From IMG/VR virus record IMGVR_UViG_3300031853_000006, positions 1 through 64,000 of that record: a stretch of DNA of 64,000 bases; one strand, 5' to 3'. A program made the translations under genes and the position numbers. The stretch comes from a virus. Its lineage: Duplodnaviria; Caudoviricetes. Below are positions 1,032 to 62,285 of this stretch, piece by piece. The notes under the pieces were generated by a model. That model ran no database searches and had not been told where the DNA came from. It was given only the letters and a program-made list of their open reading frames with translations. Within the stretch, counting starts at the first letter, position 1; each line of letters opens with the position of its first letter.

Positions 1032-1113
1032 GCAGGTATGGTGGAATTGGCAGACACGCAAGATTTAGGTTCTTGTGCTGCAAAGCGTGAGGGTTCAACT
1101 CCCTCTACCTGCA
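1032..1113 (+). tRNA. tRNA-Leu(TAG)
   Basis: GCAGGTA/TACCTGC acceptor stem, anticodon stem CAAGA/TCTTG with loop TTTAGGT, long variable arm, GGTTCAACT T-loop; CCA not encoded. Confidence 0.93.
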
Positions 1114-16202: not shown

Positions 16203-16277
16203 CGCCCCTTCGCCAAATGGTTAAGGCACGAGTTTTTGGTACTCGTATTTTTGTGGGTTCGAGTCCCACAGGGGCTG
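16203..16277 (+). tRNA. tRNA-Gln(TTG)
   Basis: GCCCCT/AGGGGC acceptor, anticodon stem CGAGT/ACTCG with loop TTTTGGT, GTGGGTTCGAGTCCCAC T-arm. Confidence 0.88.
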
Positions 16278-16531: not shown

Positions 16532-16560
16532 TTGACAAATTATGGAAAAGGTCTTATAAT
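16532..16560 (+). promoter_or_regulatory. sigma70/sigmaA-type promoter
   Basis: TTGACA-17 nt-TATAAT. Confidence 0.85.
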
Positions 16561-16567
16561 TATAATA

Positions 16568-16718
16568 CGTCAAGACAAAGCCATGCTTCATGAGCTTATT
16601 TAATTTAATAAGTGTACTTACAATAGCTACTTGTTAGCTTTTGTAATATGACGCCACTCTAAGGGCCTGGCCAATTTGTCTTGACGGATCAATCGGTAAG
16701 TTCATGAGTGGCGTTTTT
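16568..16718 (+). ncRNA. structured leader/ncRNA, copy 1
   Basis: P1 16568-16579 pairs with 16675-16686; P2 16651-16659 pairs with 16706-16714; followed by a T-run; two internal hairpins. Confidence 0.65.
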
Positions 16719-16756
16719 CATTTGATATAGCACATTATTTACGGAAGGAGAATAAA

Positions 16757-17416
16757 ATGAAACGCTATCGATATTATATACGCGAATCTAAATATCTAGA
16801 CGAAGAACAGCACAATGTATTGTTAGATGATACTTTGGAGATAGATATCGACATCGGCAGGTATCTGTATAAAATTGCTTCTAGCACTTCTGCAGAATAC
16901 GATAGGTTTCCGGGAGTATTTCAATTTAAGGAAGATGTACTTAAGATTCTTGAAGACGAATATCATTTTGAAGTAATCGAAGACGTATATGACGGAGTGC
17001 TCCAAAAAGGTCACATATCTAATCGGGCAGACAGCGCTTCTCTATACTTTGATACCTATTATGATCTATCTAATGCTACAGAGCCTAAATCTAGATTAGG
17101 GATAGCTTCGTTGAATATACCTGATTCAGGTAAAGTATACTGCTACATACATCTACGCTTTTCTGATCATCTGCACCCTGATCTAGGAGATAAAGAGCAC
17201 AATGCTTATTTAGACAGAAACATAGATAAGTATGCAAATAGAGCAGACGTAACACATGTAATGAAGGAAGAAGTATTTGAATTGCGAGAAGAAGCGCTAA
17301 TGCTTGCTTATAAAGACGCTTTGAGAATTCTAAAAGATGATTTAGATTTTAGAATAACTTCCTGGGTCAAGAAAGCTGAACACTATAAGAAAATTGAAAA
17401 CAAGTTAAACTTGTAA
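16757..17416 (+). CDS. hypothetical protein with S-x-Y...LRFSDH motif; related to 60735..61301
   Basis: Shared F-x-ED-[VI]-x6-Y, S-x-Y and LR[FI]S[DN]H motifs. Confidence 0.7.
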   Translation: MKRYRYYIRESKYLDEEQHNVLLDDTLEIDIDIGRYLYKIASSTSAEYDRFPGVFQFKEDVLKILEDEYHFEVIEDVYDGVLQKGHISNRADSASLYFDTYYDLSNATEPKSRLGIASLNIPDSGKVYCYIHLRFSDHLHPDLGDKEHNAYLDRNIDKYANRADVTHVMKEEVFELREEALMLAYKDALRILKDDLDFRITSWVKKAEHYKKIENKLNL

Positions 17417-56312: not shown

Positions 56313-58568
56313 ATGCCTAAAGCAATCAATCTAACTAGCACACAAGTAGAAGAACTGAAACAGCTAATTGCAGACGGCACTACACAGCAAAACGCTTGCA
56401 AACATTTTGGAATCTCCGAAAGTAAGTTAGCAGCTATTTGCAAAGAGAATAACATTGAACGCAAGTGGGTTAGAGAATATACTTGTGTTCTGTGCGGAAA
56501 GGTCTTCAAGGCATCTCATAAATCTGCTATATGTCCTGAATGCAAAGCTACTCCGAATGTGTGTGTAATCTGCGGAAAAGCATTCCCAAAGAAGTATTTC
56601 CCTTACAATCAAAAGACGTGTTCCGCTAAATGTCGAGGAGCATACAGAGCTCAATCCGGCACCGCAAAAGCAGGAGCACAGAAAATGAAAGAAACTAAAA
56701 TGGAGCGCTACGGCACGCTAGATCCTGCGGAAGTAACTAAGAAGAAAAAGGGAGGAGAACTTGATCCCAAGATCTGCCCATTGTGTGGAAAAGAATTTGT
56801 ACCGGATACTCCTAGACAAGTCTACTGCAAAGATGTTCATTATGTTCCCTGTCCGGTCTGTGGCAAGATGACAGAACTCAAAGATATTTCTATAGGCCCT
56901 CAGGCTTGCTCAGAAGGATGTAGAATGGCAAGGATCAATCAAACTTGCCTAGAGCGATACGGGAATAAGGACGCAGTCAATTCGGAGCACGCGAAGAAAC
57001 TGGGAAAGCAAACATCGCTTAGAAAGTATGGCAAAGAATATTACATGCAGACTGATAAAGCGAAGCAGCATTACAAAGATGTTATCCAAGAGAGATATGG
57101 AGTCACAGCTCCTATAGCATATCCAGAATTCAAGGAGAAGGCTAAGCGGACTAATCTGGAGAAGTATGGAACAGAGTATGCTTCACAGTCTGAAGAGATA
57201 AAAGAAAAGGTTAGACAGACTAATCAAGAGCTCTATGGTGGGGCAGGCTTCGCTTCGCCTATATTACGCAAGCGCATAACAGAAACAAACAAAGAGCGGT
57301 ATGGAGTAGAATTTCCAGTGAGCAGCCCAGAAATCCGACAGAAGATATCTCAGTCCCTTCGTGATAATTATGGAGTAGATAACTTCTGGAAAACCAAAGA
57401 AGACTTAGCAAGACGGATCAAAGATCCAAGAAAGATTGACGATTACTACGCATTTAAGCAAGATCCTAGAGGGTATGTAGAAAGCCATTACGAAGATAAA
57501 CCTCCAATCTATGTACTAGCAGATGATCTGGGAGTCACAGATACGCCCATTTATGATATACTCATCAACGCGAAATGTCAAGATGTAATAGATAGAACTA
57601 AACAGTCTAGCATGGAGTATGAAATCGAGCACTTATTGCGAAAGCTGGTGCCCGATGCAGAGATATGGGTCAATTGTAGACGAGTTCTTCCTGAAAATAA
57701 AGAGATTGATTTCTACTTGCCAGAATACAAATTCGGCATTGAATGTAATCCAACTATCACGCATAATTCTACAGTGTCTGCATGGAACCCTGGAGTAGAT
57801 CCCGCGCTGCCCGTCAGTTATCATAAACAGAAATCAGAACAAGCCATGCAGGTAGGCGTGTTCCTATTTCATATATTTGGATATGAATGGACAAACAAAC
57901 GAGCCATAATAGAATCAATGATTGCAAATATCTTAGGCAAAAATACAAATAAGGTCTATGCGAGGAATACACAGATAATACAAGTAGACGCGCCGACGGC
58001 TAAGAAGTTTCTAGACGATAATCACCGCCAAGGAGGGACTAACGCACCTATCAGATTAGGGCTCAAAGATAAGATTACTAACGAATTAGTGAGCCTCATG
58101 ACCTTTGGAAAAACACGTCCTAGTATCGGAAAGGAGCAAGATGCATTAGATACAGATTACGAATTGATACGATTCTGCAACAAATTGGGTACATCTGTAG
58201 TCGGAGGAGCGTCGAAGTTATTTAAGCATTTCTTATCAGAATATGCCCCAACAAAAGTGATATCATTTTCTGACATAGCACATACTAAAGGAGGACTGTA
58301 CCGGACACTAGGGTTCAAGGATGTAAGTCATTCTGATCCCGGATATGTATGGGTGAAACATTACACTGACGAATACCGAAACCGTGTATCCTGCCAGAAG
58401 GCGAACCTTCTAAAAATGTTTGACGATGTGACAGAAGAGGATATTGAAACAAAGTCAGAACGAAAAATCATGATAGACCACAAATACGTACAGGTTTACG
58501 ATAGCGGAGTCATACGATGGGAGTATACTCCAGTATCGTTAAATAGTGCAGAAGATGGAGGTGAATGA
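56313..58568 (+). CDS. multidomain endonuclease-like protein (Zn ribbons, [KR]YG repeats, Vsr/PD-(D/E)xK-like nuclease, C-terminal GNAT/Mom-like domain)
   Basis: CxxC pairs; ERYG/EKYG repeats; EIDFYLPEYKFGIECN; ELIRFC...VVGGASKLF...LY-x-x-LGF. Confidence 0.7.
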   Translation: MPKAINLTSTQVEELKQLIADGTTQQNACKHFGISESKLAAICKENNIERKWVREYTCVLCGKVFKASHKSAICPECKATPNVCVICGKAFPKKYFPYNQKTCSAKCRGAYRAQSGTAKAGAQKMKETKMERYGTLDPAEVTKKKKGGELDPKICPLCGKEFVPDTPRQVYCKDVHYVPCPVCGKMTELKDISIGPQACSEGCRMARINQTCLERYGNKDAVNSEHAKKLGKQTSLRKYGKEYYMQTDKAKQHYKDVIQERYGVTAPIAYPEFKEKAKRTNLEKYGTEYASQSEEIKEKVRQTNQELYGGAGFASPILRKRITETNKERYGVEFPVSSPEIRQKISQSLRDNYGVDNFWKTKEDLARRIKDPRKIDDYYAFKQDPRGYVESHYEDKPPIYVLADDLGVTDTPIYDILINAKCQDVIDRTKQSSMEYEIEHLLRKLVPDAEIWVNCRRVLPENKEIDFYLPEYKFGIECNPTITHNSTVSAWNPGVDPALPVSYHKQKSEQAMQVGVFLFHIFGYEWTNKRAIIESMIANILGKNTNKVYARNTQIIQVDAPTAKKFLDDNHRQGGTNAPIRLGLKDKITNELVSLMTFGKTRPSIGKEQDALDTDYELIRFCNKLGTSVVGGASKLFKHFLSEYAPTKVISFSDIAHTKGGLYRTLGFKDVSHSDPGYVWVKHYTDEYRNRVSCQKANLLKMFDDVTEEDIETKSERKIMIDHKYVQVYDSGVIRWEYTPVSLNSAEDGGE

Positions 58569-58569
58569 C

Positions 58570-60582
58570 ATGGCAACTTACACCTGCAAACGGTGCGGAA
58601 AACAGTTTGACCTAAGAGGTTTCAGCAAGTATTGCAAAGAATGTCGTGATTACTACACACCTTGCGTTATTTGCGGAACTCCAGTGCACCAGACGAATCC
58701 GGAAAATGAAGCTAAAACATGTTCAAGAAAGTGTGCAGGGCTGTATAGAAAACAATCTGGAATAAGTAAAGCTACTGCGGAGAAATCGATAGCGACTAAG
58801 AATAAGAAGTACGGCAACGGGTCAGGGGCTAAGTACAAGCCGAGGAAGTGTAAGCTCTGCGGAAAAGAGTTTATCCCAAATGGTTCAAAACAAGTTTACT
58901 GCAAGAATCCACATTACGGTCCGTGCCCTGTTTGCGGTAAGCAAACACTTATAAGGGAATTAAGCAAAGGACCGAACGCTTGTTCAGAAGAGTGTAGAAT
59001 AGCTCTTATTACTAAGTTAGCGAGAGAGCGCGATAATACCGAGTCGCTGAAGAAGAACCGGCAGACTTGCTTAGAAAGGTACGGAGTTGAATATTATTCC
59101 CAGACTAAAGAGTGGCGTGACAAAGTAGCCGAAACGTCAATGGAACATTACGGAACTACTTGCCCGCTAGCTAGCCCCGAAATTCATGAACAACTTGTTA
59201 AAACTAATATAGAGAAATATGGCTATGCTAATCCTGCGCAAGCTCCTGAAATAATTGAAAAGATTTCAAAGACTTTAGAAGAGCGTCATGGAGGTTGCGG
59301 AATGGCATCTGACGCAACACGTGAAAAGATATATGCAACTAACAAAGAACGCTACGGAGATATCCACCCTGCAAGGACTTTACAATGTAAGGAGAAGGGG
59401 AAGCAAACATCGTTGGCTCGTTACGGATACGAAAGCTATGCAAGTACTAAGGAAAGCATTGCACGTAGTATGCTAGATCCTAGCAAAATTGATGACTTCT
59501 GGAGCTTTCGCGCAGATCCTGAAACGTATGTAACATCTCATTACAAAGTGAAACCATATGCAGATGAATTAGCTGCCGATCTAGGATTCAATGAAACATC
59601 TGTATATGACATATTGATCAACTTCAACTGCAAAGATGTAATCAATCGTAGCAAAACTTCTATTATAGAAAGAGAGATGTACGAGTTCCTGACTACATTA
59701 GTCCCCGAATCTGAAATCAGAAAATGTGACAAACGGACAATCACCCCACTAGAATTAGATTTCTATCTGCCGAACTATAATTTTGCAATTGAATGCAATC
59801 CAACATATACTCACAATTCCTCATTCAAGTCCTTCGGAGAGGGTGAGCCTAAAACAACAGTGTACCACAGAAACAAAACAGATAAAGCAGAAGAAGCTGG
59901 GATATTTCTGATGCATGTTTTCGGGTATGATTGGCTTTATAAACAGGACATCATTAAATCGATGATACGCAACGCCTTAGGAAAATGTGATACTACAATT
60001 TACGCCCGGAATACAGAAGTAAAAGAGCTAGATGCAAAAACTACTCGTGAGTTTCTCAACACTAATCACAGACAAGGTGATGCATCATCTCCTATCAGAT
60101 TAGGTCTAATAGATAAGCAGACGAAAGAGCTTGTTTCAGTAATGACGTTTAGCAAACCTCGTACAACTATCGGAAGTAGTGCAGATGATCCTGAAGGATC
60201 TTATGAGCTTGTCAGATTCTGTAGTTTGCTAAATACTTCTGTAGTAGGAGGGGCTTCAAAACTATTCAAGTGGTTTAGTAGTAACTATAATCCTACAAAG
60301 ATAATATCATTCTCAGATAGAGCGCATACTCGAGGAAACTTATACAGCTCCTTAGGTTTTCACGAAGTTCGAAGATCTGATCCCGGTTACGCATGGGTCA
60401 ACGTATACACAGAAGACTACAAGAGCCGTGTAGCCTGCCAAAAACACAAACTCCCTCAGCTATTTGACGACGTAACTGAAGAAGATATGAGCAATAAGTC
60501 AGAACGAATCATAATGATGGAACATAATTACGCGCAAGTTTATGACAGCGGGACAATACGATGGGAGCTAGAACCCCGTTGA
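58570..60582 (+). CDS. tandem paralog of 56313..58568
   Basis: ELDFYLPNYNFAIECN; ELVRFC...VVGGASKLF; ATG at 58570 after GGAGG. Confidence 0.7.
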   Translation: MATYTCKRCGKQFDLRGFSKYCKECRDYYTPCVICGTPVHQTNPENEAKTCSRKCAGLYRKQSGISKATAEKSIATKNKKYGNGSGAKYKPRKCKLCGKEFIPNGSKQVYCKNPHYGPCPVCGKQTLIRELSKGPNACSEECRIALITKLARERDNTESLKKNRQTCLERYGVEYYSQTKEWRDKVAETSMEHYGTTCPLASPEIHEQLVKTNIEKYGYANPAQAPEIIEKISKTLEERHGGCGMASDATREKIYATNKERYGDIHPARTLQCKEKGKQTSLARYGYESYASTKESIARSMLDPSKIDDFWSFRADPETYVTSHYKVKPYADELAADLGFNETSVYDILINFNCKDVINRSKTSIIEREMYEFLTTLVPESEIRKCDKRTITPLELDFYLPNYNFAIECNPTYTHNSSFKSFGEGEPKTTVYHRNKTDKAEEAGIFLMHVFGYDWLYKQDIIKSMIRNALGKCDTTIYARNTEVKELDAKTTREFLNTNHRQGDASSPIRLGLIDKQTKELVSVMTFSKPRTTIGSSADDPEGSYELVRFCSLLNTSVVGGASKLFKWFSSNYNPTKIISFSDRAHTRGNLYSSLGFHEVRRSDPGYAWVNVYTEDYKSRVACQKHKLPQLFDDVTEEDMSNKSERIIMMEHNYAQVYDSGTIRWELEPR

Positions 60583-60734: not shown

Positions 60735-61301
60735 CTATCGGCTAGCAACTTCTACAGCGCGTTTGATTACTTTCTTAGCATAGTCGAAAGCCTCTTCGTA
60801 AGATCCATATTTCTCTCCGTTTACAGTTATAATTCTTGTATAAGTTTCTAAATTTTCTATCTGCTCATCAGTCAAATATTCTTTAAGTTTTTCAGATTTC
60901 AGCTCCTGATCTTTGTTATATTTCTGTGAAGCGCTGCGCTTGGGACTATGATTAGATATGCGCAATCTGATCCTGATATTAGCTATGACATTTCCATCTG
61001 CGTCTGTTGCTAAGTAGTTATAGTAGTGTGAATGATCTGGACTAACATTTTTATATGTCCCAATCAATCCGTAGTTAACTTCGCACAGCCATTCTATGTC
61101 CTCCATGAATGCTTCGAAATCATCTATCATCCATTGCTTAATCTTCTTCTTATGCCTCGAAATTACGGGCCTGGAGGGGAGTTTAGGATGCGGAATACGT
61201 TCAGCTGCAGCTATAGTTCGAGGGTCAATCGAATAACCTGCGTCTACTACTATGTCAATGATTGCAGGATTAGTTTGATTACCCCTAACAAATATCTTCA
61301 T
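60735..61301 (-). CDS. hypothetical protein with S-x-Y...LRISNH motif; related to 16757..17416
   Basis: GGAAGGAG RBS on the minus strand; shared motifs. Confidence 0.75.
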   Translation of the reverse strand: MKIFVRGNQTNPAIIDIVVDAGYSIDPRTIAAAERIPHPKLPSRPVISRHKKKIKQWMIDDFEAFMEDIEWLCEVNYGLIGTYKNVSPDHSHYYNYLATDADGNVIANIRIRLRISNHSPKRSASQKYNKDQELKSEKLKEYLTDEQIENLETYTRIITVNGEKYGSYEEAFDYAKKVIKRAVEVASR

Positions 61302-61321: not shown

Positions 61322-61447
61322 TATAAAAGCATCACTAGAAGTAGAACAGTATGTTCTCGGCCAAGACAACAATACCCACGATTCTCTAGTGATGCTAATA
61401 TTCATAACGATTTACATCGTTGGGTACTTATCTCTATGTCTTGGCTT
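61322..61447 (-). ncRNA. structured leader/ncRNA, copy 2
   Basis: P1 61437-61445 with 61360-61368; P2 61385-61396 with 61328-61339; U-rich tail; same topology as 16568..16718. Confidence 0.65.
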
Positions 61448-61453
61448 AATTTT

Positions 61454-61482
61454 ATTATAAGCCCTGATAGGTGAAAAGTCAA
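61454..61482 (-). promoter_or_regulatory. sigma70/sigmaA-type promoter
   Basis: TTGACT-17 nt-TATAAT on the minus strand. Confidence 0.8.
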
Positions 61483-61621: not shown

Positions 61622-61930
61622 ATGGATCACAGAGATAACAAAAAGAAAGTACTAAGTTCCGGAGGAAGCCGAAGATTATCGAATCAGCTGAATCCGTCGT
61701 TTACAACAGAACGAAGAAAAGATGAATGGTTGATTGATAGTTGCATTTACAAAGCCGATCAAAAGTTTTCTAATTCGCACTGCGGTAAGAGGTGTAAGAA
61801 TAGGAATGTTAGCGCTCTTAAGTGCCGAGGCGGATGCGGTTGTGAATACTACTTGTCGACGAAAGAATGGCGTCTTTCAAAGAAGGGCAAAGCGATTAAC
61901 CTGAAGGAGGAGTTAGGTCATGCCAGATGA
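61622..61930 (+). CDS. basic Cys-containing hypothetical protein
   Basis: AAGGAG RBS; ATCGTTA motif upstream. Confidence 0.6.
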   Translation: MDHRDNKKKVLSSGGSRRLSNQLNPSFTTERRKDEWLIDSCIYKADQKFSNSHCGKRCKNRNVSALKCRGGCGCEYYLSTKEWRLSKKGKAINLKEELGHAR

Positions 61931-62285
61931 TAACTACGACAGCTCTATAATTGTCCAAAATTGGCTCAAAGATCACAACATTCCTTTCACTACAGAACAG
62001 ACATTCGAAGGACTTGTAGGACAGAGCGGAGCTCACTTGAGATTCGACATTTACCTAGAACAGCACAAAATGTGTATAGAAGTGGACGGGCAGCAGCATT
62101 ATCGAGCGTGCAAAAATGTCAATATGAAAACTTTTCTCAAAAAGAGAAATCATGACAGGCGTAAAGAATGGTACTGTTATACACACGGGCTGTTCTTGTT
62201 GAGACTAGTCTGGGACGAACTCGCTTACTTAGATCAAATTCTCGGTTTCCTACTAAAATGGGAAGCGACGCTAGTACAAAGCTGA
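61920..62285 (+). CDS. DUF559/Vsr-like endonuclease
   Basis: LRFDIYL...IEVDGQQHY...DRRK...LLRL. Confidence 0.75.
   Translation: MPDDNYDSSIIVQNWLKDHNIPFTTEQTFEGLVGQSGAHLRFDIYLEQHKMCIEVDGQQHYRACKNVNMKTFLKKRNHDRRKEWYCYTHGLFLLRLVWDELAYLDQILGFLLKWEATLVQS

What the first reader, a model, noticed from the sequence alone, without database searches (positions are those of the whole stretch)
16532..17416. Promoter, pseudoknot-topology RNA and LR[FI]S[DN]H protein unit, copy 1
Seen: transcription would start right at stem P1 (CGTCAAGACAAA/TTTGTCTTGACG). A second stem P2 (ACGCCACTC/GAGTGGCGT) has its 5' arm inside P1 and its 3' arm outside, followed by a U-run, GGAAGGAG and the ORF. The same topology, with the same CAAGACA/TGTCTTG core but a different P2 sequence, precedes the related gene at 60735..61301, which amounts to covariation within one genome. 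Established: type III toxin-antitoxin loci have the order promoter, pseudoknot RNA, terminator, RNase, but typically use tandem repeats. Inference: an uncharacterised RNA-protein pair (RNA antitoxin, or an attenuator bound by the protein).
Basis: partly seen in the sequence, partly recalled or inferred. Interest (0 to 1): 0.8.

Follow-up and report, generated by a model that had tools for sequence, protein, structure and literature searches.

The report
Pseudoknot-terminator leader RNA of phage genes
Three distantly related genes of an uncultured phage each start with the same uncatalogued folded RNA, a long hairpin whose tip pairs with a downstream transcription-stop signal. It probably throttles production of an unknown nuclease-like protein and may also bind that protein.

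Summary
A consensus sigma-A promoter (16532-16560) starts transcription at the foot of a long hairpin (P1). A 9-10 nt segment in its apical loop pairs with a segment 19 nt past the hairpin (P2). P2 is GC-rich and is followed directly by a U-run, then the RBS and the ORF.

The same topology precedes the gene at 60735-61301. It also precedes a third paralogue outside the window (genome 99174-99896).

A genome-wide scan for this topology finds only these three sites in 117 kb; shuffled genomes give 0.25. A superfamily profile finds only these three genes.

Ten further metagenomic homologues keep P1 and P2 with unrelated sequences: 192 of 192 anchored pair cells are paired, with 2-5 pair types per column. 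The linker length tracks the hairpin length (r = 0.79).

Rfam, Pfam, PHROGs, NCBIfam and PADLOC give no credible match. The proteins form one superfamily (invariant S-x-Y, S-[DN]-H) with a weak restriction-endonuclease-like fold.

Best reading: a cis-acting pseudoknot-type attenuator that also yields a small RNA, closest to RCd22/AbiF. Membership of type III TA systems is not met. Seven homologues lack the RNA, which argues against an obligatory antitoxin.

An earlier scan note had already flagged the third copy.

The parts
16532..16560 (+). Copy 1 promoter: -35 TTGACA and -10 TATAAT with a 17-nt spacer. It carries the phage's usual GTC extension upstream of the -35.
   Evidence: One search gives 12 of 12 matches. 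One search shows it is one of 15 consensus promoters in the genome.
16568..16579 (+). Copy 1, P1a 5' arm (CGTCAAGACAAA). It begins 8 nt after the -10 hexamer, at about +1.
16580..16650 (+). Copy 1, interior of the P1 domain: the P1 extension (GCCA/TGGC and further pairs) and apical hairpins.
   Evidence: MFE folds.
16651..16659 (+). Copy 1, P2 5' arm (ACGCCACTC). It lies on the 3' side of the apical loop of P1.
   Evidence: One search gives mean P(unpaired) 0.49 for this arm against 0.30 for the rest of the domain.
16675..16686 (+). Copy 1, P1a 3' arm (TTTGTCTTGACG).
16687..16705 (+). Copy 1, linker L3 (19 nt). It runs from the foot of P1 to the P2 3' arm.
   Evidence: The script, with arms extended as far as they pair, gives L3 = 19 nt in all three copies in the genome. 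With the fixed arms the values are 19, 20 and 23.
16706..16719 (+). Copy 1, P2 3' arm (GAGTGGCGT) followed by the U-run: the stem and tail of a probable intrinsic terminator.
   Evidence: One search gives a P2 duplex energy of -15.5 kcal/mol.
16743..16750 (+). Copy 1 ribosome-binding site (GGAAGGAG).
16757..17416 (+). Copy 1 gene: a 219-aa protein of family 1 with ...CYIHLRFSDH.... The first 47 residues are disordered, followed by an alpha-beta3-alpha-beta-alpha core.
61454..61482 (-). Copy 2 promoter: TTGACT-17-TATAAT.
   Evidence: 11 of 12 matches.
61437..61445 (-). Copy 2, P1a 5' arm (GCCAAGACA).
61385..61395 (-). Copy 2, P2 5' arm (GCATCACTAGA) in the apical loop. GTAAATCGTTAT lies just upstream of it.
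61360..61368 (-). Copy 2, P1a 3' arm (TGTCTTGGC).
61325..61339 (-). Copy 2, P2 3' arm (TCTAGTGATGC) followed by the U-run.
   Evidence: One search gives a P2 duplex energy of -16.6 kcal/mol.
60735..61301 (-). Copy 2 gene: a 188-aa protein of family 2 with ...RIRLRISNH.... It is the only minus-strand gene in its neighbourhood.

Best explanation
The unit is a self-contained transcription module.

How the RNA folds:
- A strong host-type (sigma-A) promoter starts an RNA whose first nucleotides form the foot of a long hairpin, P1a plus P1b, of about 21-33 nt per strand.
- The 3' side of the hairpin's apical loop displays a GC-rich 7-13 nt segment.
- This segment pairs with a second segment 13-23 nt downstream of the hairpin's foot. 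The result is a large H-type pseudoknot.
- The second helix (P2) is followed at once by a U-run, so it doubles as the stem of an intrinsic terminator.

Consequence (inferred): most transcripts end here as a compact RNA of about 120-155 nt with both ends base-paired. A minority read through into the RBS and the gene for an R-x-S-[DN]-H protein. In copy 1, read-through would continue into the SNF2 helicase gene behind it.

The leader therefore works in cis as an attenuator. It keeps a protein with a nuclease-like fold, which may be harmful, at a low level despite a consensus promoter.

The RNA occurs only with this protein superfamily and has diverged together with it, so the protein probably recognises its own leader for feedback or neutralisation. 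RCd22 RNA does this with AbiF.

Shown: the structure, its conservation and covariation, and its exclusive linkage to the gene family. Inferred: termination, read-through and protein binding.
For: Structure and conservation:
- P1a and P2 are kept in 12 leaders with unrelated sequences. P1a has 108 of 108 cells paired and P2 has 84 of 84, with 2-5 pair types per column. With partners permuted, the means are 63 of 108 and 44.5 of 84.
- Five G-U wobbles in P2 would be A-C mismatches on the other strand, which fits an RNA of the sense strand.
- In the closely related pair L005/L021, a U-A pair becomes U-G.

Specificity:
- The topological scan finds 3 sites in the genome against 0.25 in shuffles. 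All three are in front of the only 3 family genes.
- In 111 kb of other loci, 10 of the 13 distinct sites found lie directly in front of a family gene.

Geometry of a true pseudoknot:
- Linker L3 measures 13-23 nt.
- L3 length correlates with the length of the descending P1 strand (r = 0.79, p = 0.004, n = 11).
- The P2 5' arm is more accessible than the rest of the P1 domain in all 12 leaders.

Terminator features:
- P2 duplex energies are -12 to -19 kcal/mol.
- Every P2 is followed by T3-5.
- L009 carries an ordinary short-loop terminator at the same place.

Start of transcription: P1a begins 5-8 nt after the -10 hexamer in 7 of 11 leaders.

A need for control:
- The leader is present in 10 of 12 loci where the gene has its own promoter.
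- It is absent where the gene sits inside an operon.
- In L014-16 a 53-aa ORF takes the leader's place. Its best PDB match is the RHH end of HicB antitoxins, E = 0.038.

Precedent: RCd22/AbiF has a SigA promoter, a 100-130 nt structured RNA with a terminator, then an RBS and a toxin gene. That RNA acts in cis and in trans (PMC12373285).
Against: - There is no expression data.
- P2 closes a 34-57 nt loop, so the standard terminator scan does not call it. Termination by a pseudoknotted stem is plausible but not demonstrated.
- No conserved alternative (antiterminator) helix was found. Only W1 has one. What, if anything, switches the attenuator is therefore unknown.
- No nucleotide outside the U-run is invariant, so no binding site for a protein or ligand can be pointed to.
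- L023 and L025 carry family genes directly behind a promoter with no leader, so the control is dispensable in some phages.
- The protein's function is unknown. The nuclease-like fold rests on Z scores of only 4-6.
Confidence: 0.55

Rival explanations
1. An RNA-protein toxin-antitoxin pair in the manner of type III systems or RCd22/AbiF. The terminated pseudoknot RNA binds and neutralises, or is required by, the nuclease-like protein. The three copies are three orthogonal pairs.
For: - The gene order is the same as in type III TA loci and RCd22/AbiF: promoter, structured RNA, terminator, RBS, gene.
- There is a strict one-to-one linkage of RNA and gene in this genome.
- The RNA sequence differs between paralogues while the fold is kept, as expected for cognate pairs.
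- In L014 an ORF resembling a protein antitoxin stands in the RNA's place.
- Family 2 has a very basic stretch after the RISNH motif.
Against: - Seven of about 19 distinct loci encode the protein with no RNA. Two of them have their own promoter.
- There are no tandem repeats.
- There is no match to any known toxin or defence family.
- No family-1 relative was found in 185,579 bacterial and archaeal species genomes. The other families were not scanned there.
- The host genome looks like that of a large lytic phage, and toxicity is untested.
Confidence: 0.22
2. A dual-promoter temporal switch. Early host-RNAP transcripts from the sigma-A promoter fold into P1 and P2 and stop. Later transcripts start at a phage-specific promoter (AAATCGTTAT) inside the apical loop, lack the P1 5' strand, and express the gene. 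The logic resembles late-promoter bypass of inhibitory hairpins in T4 homing-endonuclease genes.
For: - GTAAATCGTTAT is identical in the apical loops of copy 2 and the third copy. Similar words lie in L020 and L009.
- The motif occurs 33 times in the genome, 27 of them on the coding strand and 16 within 75 nt of an RBS and start codon.
Against: - Copy 1 and most homologous leaders have no such motif.
- Enrichment is modest: 33 observed against 19.9 in shuffles, maximum 31.
- In L011, L013 and L022 the motif lies upstream of P1. In L004 it lies inside the sigma-A promoter spacer.
- A start shortly after the motif would still include the P2 5' arm, so the terminator could still form.
Confidence: 0.1
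3. The short RNA is the product that matters. It would be a stable trans-acting small RNA, decoy or sponge made early in infection, and the downstream gene merely shares its promoter.
For: - The promoter is strong, both RNA ends are base-paired, and a terminator follows.
- There is no conserved switch helix.
Against: - The sequence is not conserved, even in loops, so no common target is evident.
- The RNA is never found apart from this gene family in the DNA examined. One weak extra hit in L011 is the exception.
Confidence: 0.08
4. A DNA-level element. The inverted repeats would be operators, a cruciform or an origin element bound by the adjacent protein.
For: - The P1 arms of copy 1 repeat the GTCTTGAC word of the promoter's -35 region.
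- Homologues lie beside iteron-like repeats and replication genes.
- One relative is fused to a Toprim domain.
Against: - GTCTTGAC is simply the -35 context of this phage's promoters. It is absent from most homologous P1 arms.
- The G-U pairs are strand-specific.
- The position from +1 to a U-run and an RBS is that of a transcript.
- The arms have no common sequence that a DNA-binding protein could read.
Confidence: 0.05

Closest known systems
RCd22 RNA / AbiF (Abi_2) system of a Clostridioides difficile prophage (PMC12373285)
   Same: - The layout runs SigA promoter, structured RNA of about 100-130 nt ending in a Rho-independent terminator, RBS, then a gene for a potentially harmful protein.
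- Short and read-through transcripts share one start.
- The RNA lowers expression in cis and binds the protein in trans.
   Different: - There is no abiF motif: no Rfam match.
- There is no Abi_2/HEPN protein.
- Here the fold is one large pseudoknot whose second helix is itself the terminator stem, not two hairpin motifs followed by a separate terminator.
- The genome holds three divergent copies and looks like that of a lytic phage.
- Some relatives lack the RNA.
Type III toxin-antitoxin systems (ToxIN, CptIN, TenpIN)
   Same: - The order is promoter, pseudoknot-forming RNA, terminator, protein gene.
- The terminator sets the RNA-to-protein ratio (established knowledge; reviews listed).
   Different: - The antitoxin RNAs of those systems are tandem repeats of about 36 nt, cut by the toxin. 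None are present here.
- Their toxins are ToxN, CptN or TenpN endoRNases. Nothing matches them here.
- Here the pseudoknot is 120-155 nt and includes the terminator.
Autoregulatory mRNA-leader pseudoknots (phage T4 gene 32; E. coli rpsO/S15 and the alpha-operon/S4)
   Same: - A pseudoknot at the 5' end of the mRNA, kept by covariation.
- It sits in front of the gene whose product reads it (established knowledge).
   Different: - Those elements act on translation and have no terminator.
- They are small.
- Their proteins are known nucleic-acid binders.
- Binding is untested here.
Activator pseudoknot of IncI-alpha/IncB plasmid rep mRNAs (repZ/repA)
   Same: A hairpin's apical loop pairs with a distal segment just upstream of the RBS of the controlled gene (established knowledge, recalled from memory and not checked here).
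   Different: - That pseudoknot activates translation. It is blocked by an antisense RNA and coupled to a leader peptide.
- No antisense promoter or leader peptide was seen here.
- Here a U-run follows the distal arm.
Intrinsic (Rho-independent) terminators and leader attenuators
   Same: A GC-rich helix followed directly by a U-run, placed between a promoter and the gene.
   Different: - The loop is 34-57 nt, not 3-8 nt, and contains one strand of another helix.
- No competing antiterminator is conserved.

Membership tests
Type III toxin-antitoxin (ToxIN/CptIN/TenpIN) | Antitoxin RNA built of tandem direct repeats | tested here: not met
   Tandem Repeats Finder finds nothing in either leader at minimum score 30.
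Type III toxin-antitoxin (ToxIN/CptIN/TenpIN) | Toxin belongs to the ToxN/AbiQ, CptN or TenpN endoribonuclease families | tested here: not met
   No credible Pfam match and no PADLOC or NCBIfam match. The predicted fold is alpha-beta3-alpha-beta.
Type III toxin-antitoxin (ToxIN/CptIN/TenpIN) | Terminator between the RNA gene and the toxin gene | tested here: met
   A GC-rich P2 helix plus U-run lies 20-41 nt before the start codon in all leaders. This holds by sequence only.
Type III toxin-antitoxin (ToxIN/CptIN/TenpIN) | The protein is toxic and the RNA neutralises it by direct binding | not testable with these tools
   Needs expression and binding assays. Loci without the RNA argue against an obligatory antitoxin.
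abiF RNA motif / AbiF (RCd22-type) | abiF RNA motif (Rfam RF03085) upstream of an Abi_2 protein | tested here: not met
   Rfam searches at gathering and at permissive thresholds give no abiF match. There is no Abi_2 match.
Riboswitch with terminator expression platform | Conserved ligand-binding core nucleotides, and an aptamer helix that competes with the terminator | tested here: not met
   No invariant column outside the U-run. P1 and P2 do not overlap. No conserved alternative helix exists. No Rfam family matches.
Intrinsic terminator | GC-rich stem immediately followed by a U-run | tested here: met
   P2 duplexes have energies of -12 to -19 kcal/mol. T3-5 follows directly in 12 of 12 leaders.
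Intrinsic terminator | Short hairpin loop (about 3-8 nt) | tested here: not met
   The loop is 34-57 nt and the consensus scan does not call it. L009 is the one exception, with a 10-nt loop.
H-type RNA pseudoknot | Two helices in the order 5'a-5'b-3'a-3'b, both supported by covariation, with linkers long enough to span the helices | tested here: met
   All anchored pair cells are paired, with 2-5 pair types per column. L3 scales with P1 length, r = 0.79. Whether both helices form at the same time was not tested physically.
PD-(D/E)XK (restriction-endonuclease-like) nucleases | alpha-beta-beta-beta-alpha-beta core fold | tested here: inconclusive
   The order of secondary-structure elements fits. 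Both models list Hjc, McrC, VRR-NUC, FokI, BpuSI, Bax1 and I-Ssp6803I, but only at Z 3.5-5.6. Foldseek finds nothing at E <= 0.001.
PD-(D/E)XK (restriction-endonuclease-like) nucleases | Catalytic D...(D/E)-x-K signature on strands 2-3 | tested here: inconclusive
   The invariant residues are S-x-Y on strand 2, S-[DN]-H at the end of strand 3, and a Tyr on the last helix. No D/ExK signature was recognised by eye. No residue-level superposition was available.

The most novel reading that the evidence does not exclude
A new class of single-unit RNA-protein pairs carried by lytic phages. A large pseudoknot RNA would be made in excess from an early promoter and would specifically bind its cognate R-x-S-[DN]-H nuclease-fold protein. 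It would keep the protein inactive, or direct it, until the RNA decays or is displaced. The three orthogonal pairs in one genome would be weapons against the host or against competing phages. This would be a type III-like system with neither repeats nor a ToxN-type toxin.
Probability: 0.2. Interest if true: 0.85.

Novelty: new variant of a known kind. Interest (0 to 1): 0.62.

Why it matters
If the reading holds, it adds three things.

1. A new structured RNA family. It has clear covariation and an unusual design: the terminator stem is the second helix of a 120-155 nt pseudoknot.
2. A new phage protein superfamily with no match in any curated library.
3. A heritable link between the two that has survived divergence beyond BLAST recognition.

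The unit gives a compact, testable case of how phages restrain a gene placed behind a consensus early promoter.

If the RNA also binds its protein, RNA-antitoxin-like control would extend from bacterial defence islands and prophages to large lytic phages of Bacillota in the gut or rumen. The three natural, sequence-orthogonal versions could also serve as attenuator parts.

Tried and rejected
**RNA families and alignments**
- Rfam at gathering threshold on the whole window, and at E <= 10 on both leaders, gave only two tRNAs and noise.
- Sequence-based alignment (MAFFT) followed by RNAalifold was run on the whole leaders, on the P1 domains and on the 3' halves. It predicted no pairs. The cause is that the leaders share no primary sequence and MAFFT misplaces the arms. 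I replaced it with an analysis anchored on the arms. For the same reason no covariance model was built.

**Protein families**
- Pfam, PHROGs, NCBIfam and PADLOC gave no credible hit. The phrog_2657 'transcriptional regulator' match (E = 1.2e-4) was seen in 1 of 17 family members and I rejected it as spurious. FIN1 scored below its cut-off.
- PDB sequence searches with both profiles found nothing.
- The ESM Atlas gave no usable hit.
- Foldseek against the PDB and BFVD found nothing at E <= 0.001.
- A search for longer, fused relatives found none. One Toprim fusion surfaced in the representative search.

**Other collections**
- The cultured-phage collection has no DNA or protein match for families 1 and 2.
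- Bacterial and archaeal species genomes have no family-1 relative.
- IMG/VR scans gave one locus for family 1 and none for family 2 or the third copy.
- The superfamily alignment was too divergent for locus scans.
- The records behind the metagenomic loci are not held for whole-record searches.
No expression data could be examined.

**Ideas rejected**
- The P1 3' arm as a second sigma-A promoter: it contains TTGACG, but the -10 position is GC-rich or a poor match.
- GTCTTGAC as an operator: it is the normal -35 context of this phage's promoters.
- A conserved antiterminator between L1 and L3/P2: it is significant only in copy 1.
Full report
**Context.** The window is the first 64 kb of a 116,896-base IMG/VR virus record, estimated 78% complete.
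- The genome has 42% G+C and 15 near-identical consensus promoters of the form AAAAAGTCTTGAC-N17-TATAAT.
- It uses strong GGAGG-type ribosome-binding sites.
- The helicase next to copy 1 is about 35% identical to helicases of Clostridium, Bacillus and Streptococcus phages.
- The host is therefore probably a Bacillota species.
- Record names of related contigs (XIEF21, STEW18) suggest ruminant gut samples. That is my reading of the names, not a tool result.

**The observation.** In copy 1:
- The promoter lies at 16532-16560 with 12 of 12 matches.
- P1 pairs 16568-16579 with 16675-16686.
- P2 pairs 16651-16659 with 16706-16714.
- Then come a T-run, GGAAGGAG at 16743-16750, and the ORF at 16757-17416.

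Copy 2, on the minus strand, repeats this order with another P2 sequence. Both leaders fold better than shuffles, with z about -3.1.

I wrote a detector for two crossing helices followed by a T-rich tail close to the start codon. It scores both copies above all 200 shuffles.

**A third copy, and exclusivity.** An earlier scan note (e1-5938218) pointed to a third unit outside the window, and I verified it.
- Promoter at genome position 99174.
- P1 is TTGCTAGAGGAAG/TTTCCTCTAGCAA.
- P2 is CGCCGTCTATT/AATAGGCGGCG, followed by a T-run.
- The ORF at 99381-99896 encodes 171 aa with FIYLRISDH.

A stricter scan of both strands of the whole genome finds exactly these three places, and with its arm extension the linker L3 is 19 nt in all three. 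Twenty block-shuffled genomes give 0.25 hits on average. A superfamily profile finds exactly three genes in the genome, the same three. RNA and gene are thus linked one to one.

**Conservation elsewhere.** Family 1 (24 proteins at 43-55% identity) and family 2 (17 proteins at 41-60%) come only from metagenomes. I fetched 19 distinct homologous loci.

Ten further distinct leaders keep the topology with different arm sequences: L004, L005/L021, L006, L009 (a variant), L011/L012, L013, L017, L020, L022 and L028.

With P1a anchored at its outer pair and P2 at the pair next to the U-run:
- P1a has 108 of 108 cells paired and P2 has 84 of 84.
- Each column shows 2-5 pair types.
- Permuting partners among leaders gives 63 of 108 and 44.5 of 84.
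- Five G-U pairs in P2 would be A-C mismatches on the other strand.
- The near-identical pair L005/L021 differs by a U-A to U-G change.

In 111 kb of fetched loci the scan reports 13 distinct sites. Ten lie directly in front of a family gene.

**Anatomy.** The P1 domain folds the same way in every leader.
- P1a is followed by an internal loop or bulge, then P1b.
- The apical region usually carries one small hairpin.
- The P2 5' arm lies on the 3' side of the apical loop, next to the descending P1b strand.
- That arm is more often unpaired than the rest of the domain (0.36-0.90 against 0.22-0.40).
- P2 duplexes have energies of -12 to -19 kcal/mol.
- Linker L3 is 13-23 nt, somewhat A-rich and G-poor.
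- L3 length rises with the length of the descending P1 strand (r = 0.79, p = 0.004, n = 11).

That correlation is expected if L3 must run back along the P1 helix to reach the apical loop, that is, if both helices form together as one H-type pseudoknot.

P1a starts 5-8 nt after the -10 hexamer in 7 of 11 leaders, so the RNA's 5' end is buried in P1. No alternative helix competing with P2 is conserved. Only copy 1 has one, at -23.1 kcal/mol with z = -3.9.

**The proteins.** BLASTP sees no similarity between copies 1 and 2. hhalign is weak (probability 12%) but aligns the same motifs. Four results support homology:
- A whole-library profile search with family 1 reaches intermediate proteins. One of them, P0091, is also hit by the family 2 profile at 1.4e-15.
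- The profiles cross-hit the third copy and L017.
- A combined alignment of 23 sequences forms a continuum. It has invariant S-x-Y, an invariant His in [RK]-x-[ST]-[DNE]-H, and an invariant Tyr in the last helix.
- L002/L008 carries members of both families. L007 carries a tandem pair.

The AlphaFold models have pLDDT 79 and 77. Both show a disordered N-terminus of about 45 residues, then helix, three strands, helix, strand and a long helix.

Both models return largely the same list of solved structures: Hjc resolvases, McrC, VRR-NUC, FokI, BpuSI, Bax1, I-Ssp6803I, the tRNA-splicing endonuclease, the chimallin N-terminal part and the Fbxo7 FP domain. The Z scores are only 3.5-6. The shared hit list supports one common fold. 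The restriction-endonuclease-like assignment remains a lead, not a result. No curated library gives a credible match to the family.

Gene neighbours are replication and nucleotide-metabolism genes: SNF2 helicase, DnaB, DnaA-like, dUTPase and DUF932. One relative is fused to a Toprim domain.

**Where the leader is missing.** Five groups of homologues lie directly behind another gene and have no leader: L003, L007, L010, L018/19 and the family-1 gene of L002/L008.
- The family-2 gene of L002/L008 has only a simple hairpin.
- L023/24 and L025 have a promoter that runs straight into the RBS.
- L014-16 have a 53-aa ORF in the leader's place. Its best PDB match is the RHH end of HicB antitoxins, E = 0.038, and it has no Pfam hit.

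So the leader goes with having one's own strong promoter (10 of 12 such loci) and is not indispensable to the protein.

**Interpretation.** The safest statement is structural. This is a conserved, uncatalogued pseudoknot leader RNA of about 120-155 nt, and its second helix has the features of an intrinsic terminator stem.

From that I infer a cis-acting attenuator behind a consensus early promoter. It would give much short RNA and little mRNA.

The exclusive, co-diverging link with one protein superfamily suggests that the protein reads its own leader. I could not test this.

The closest worked example is RCd22/AbiF in a C. difficile prophage. There the RNA both terminates in cis and binds the toxin in trans (PMC12373285).

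Membership of the type III systems fails on repeats and on toxin family. The leaderless homologues weaken the idea of an obligatory antitoxin.

A dual-promoter switch through the AAATCGTTAT word in the apical loop fits copies 2 and 3. It does not fit copy 1 or most homologues. A DNA-level role is unlikely given the strand-specific wobble pairs and the lack of any shared arm sequence.

**Verdict.** The finding is a new variant of a known kind, a leader attenuator or RNA-protein module. It has an unusual architecture and an unknown protein partner, and it is readily testable.

Noticed in passing
G000:C1 99174-99896 (outside the window; locus L029 275-997): A third promoter-leader-gene unit of the same kind. 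The protein has 171 aa with FIYLRISDH. P1 starts 33 nt after the -10 hexamer instead of at +1.
   Followed up: yes
Whole genome, e.g. window 4944, 5197, 5741, 6339, 7734, 8404, 8859, 9097, 9760, 12173, 13572, 13892, 16757, 21550, 41218: Twenty-six of 203 RBS-preceded ORFs match a loose N-terminal pattern, and about 22 of them begin MKR[WVYF][IV][HKR]A[ST]. Otherwise they look unrelated. All three leader-linked genes are among them. Many lie in the early region behind sigma-A promoters. I did not test it, and the early-promoter context makes me doubt it.
   Followed up: partly
Window 343, 3285, 14470, 15519, 21986, 39740, 58535, 61411 (-), 61529, and further sites beyond the window: The word AAATCGTTA[AT][AG]TA recurs. 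There are 33 ATCGTTA in the genome against 19.9 in shuffles, 27 of them on the + strand and 16 within 75 nt upstream of an RBS and start codon. It has no -35 partner. It may be a phage-specific promoter or RNA signal. It also occurs in related metagenomic contigs.
   Followed up: partly
L011 1990-2835 and L013 1960-2835: A non-coding stretch of about 1 kb lies upstream of the family-1 gene and near a DnaB gene. It holds four or five iteron-like repeats (AAATATATCT[AG]TTTTTG...), which suggests a replication origin.
   Followed up: no
Window 16580-16601 with 16694-16712: In copy 1 only, a long alternative helix forms between the start of the P1 interior and L3 plus the first bases of the P2 3' arm (-23.1 kcal/mol, z = -3.9). 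A direct repeat, TTCATGAG, underlies it. It could act as an antiterminator in this copy. It is not conserved in 10 other leaders.
   Followed up: partly
L014 2833-2994 (also L015, L016): A 53-aa ORF stands where the leader RNA would be, in front of a family-2 gene. Its weak best PDB match is the C-terminal (RHH) part of HicB antitoxins, E = 0.038.
   Followed up: partly
Window 56313-60582: Two adjacent paralogous genes of 751 and 678 aa are rich in CxxC pairs and repeated ERYG motifs. They lie just upstream of the oppositely oriented copy 2. A 121-aa ORF at 61920-62285 looks like a small endonuclease-type protein. The region may be rich in mobile genes.
   Followed up: no
Window 1032-1113 and 16203-16277: Two phage-encoded tRNA genes. 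The second lies about 250 bp upstream of the copy 1 promoter.
   Followed up: no
P0064 (353 aa, metagenomic): A Toprim_2 domain (E = 3.7e-10) is fused to a family-1-like domain that has lost the RFSDH motif.
   Followed up: partly
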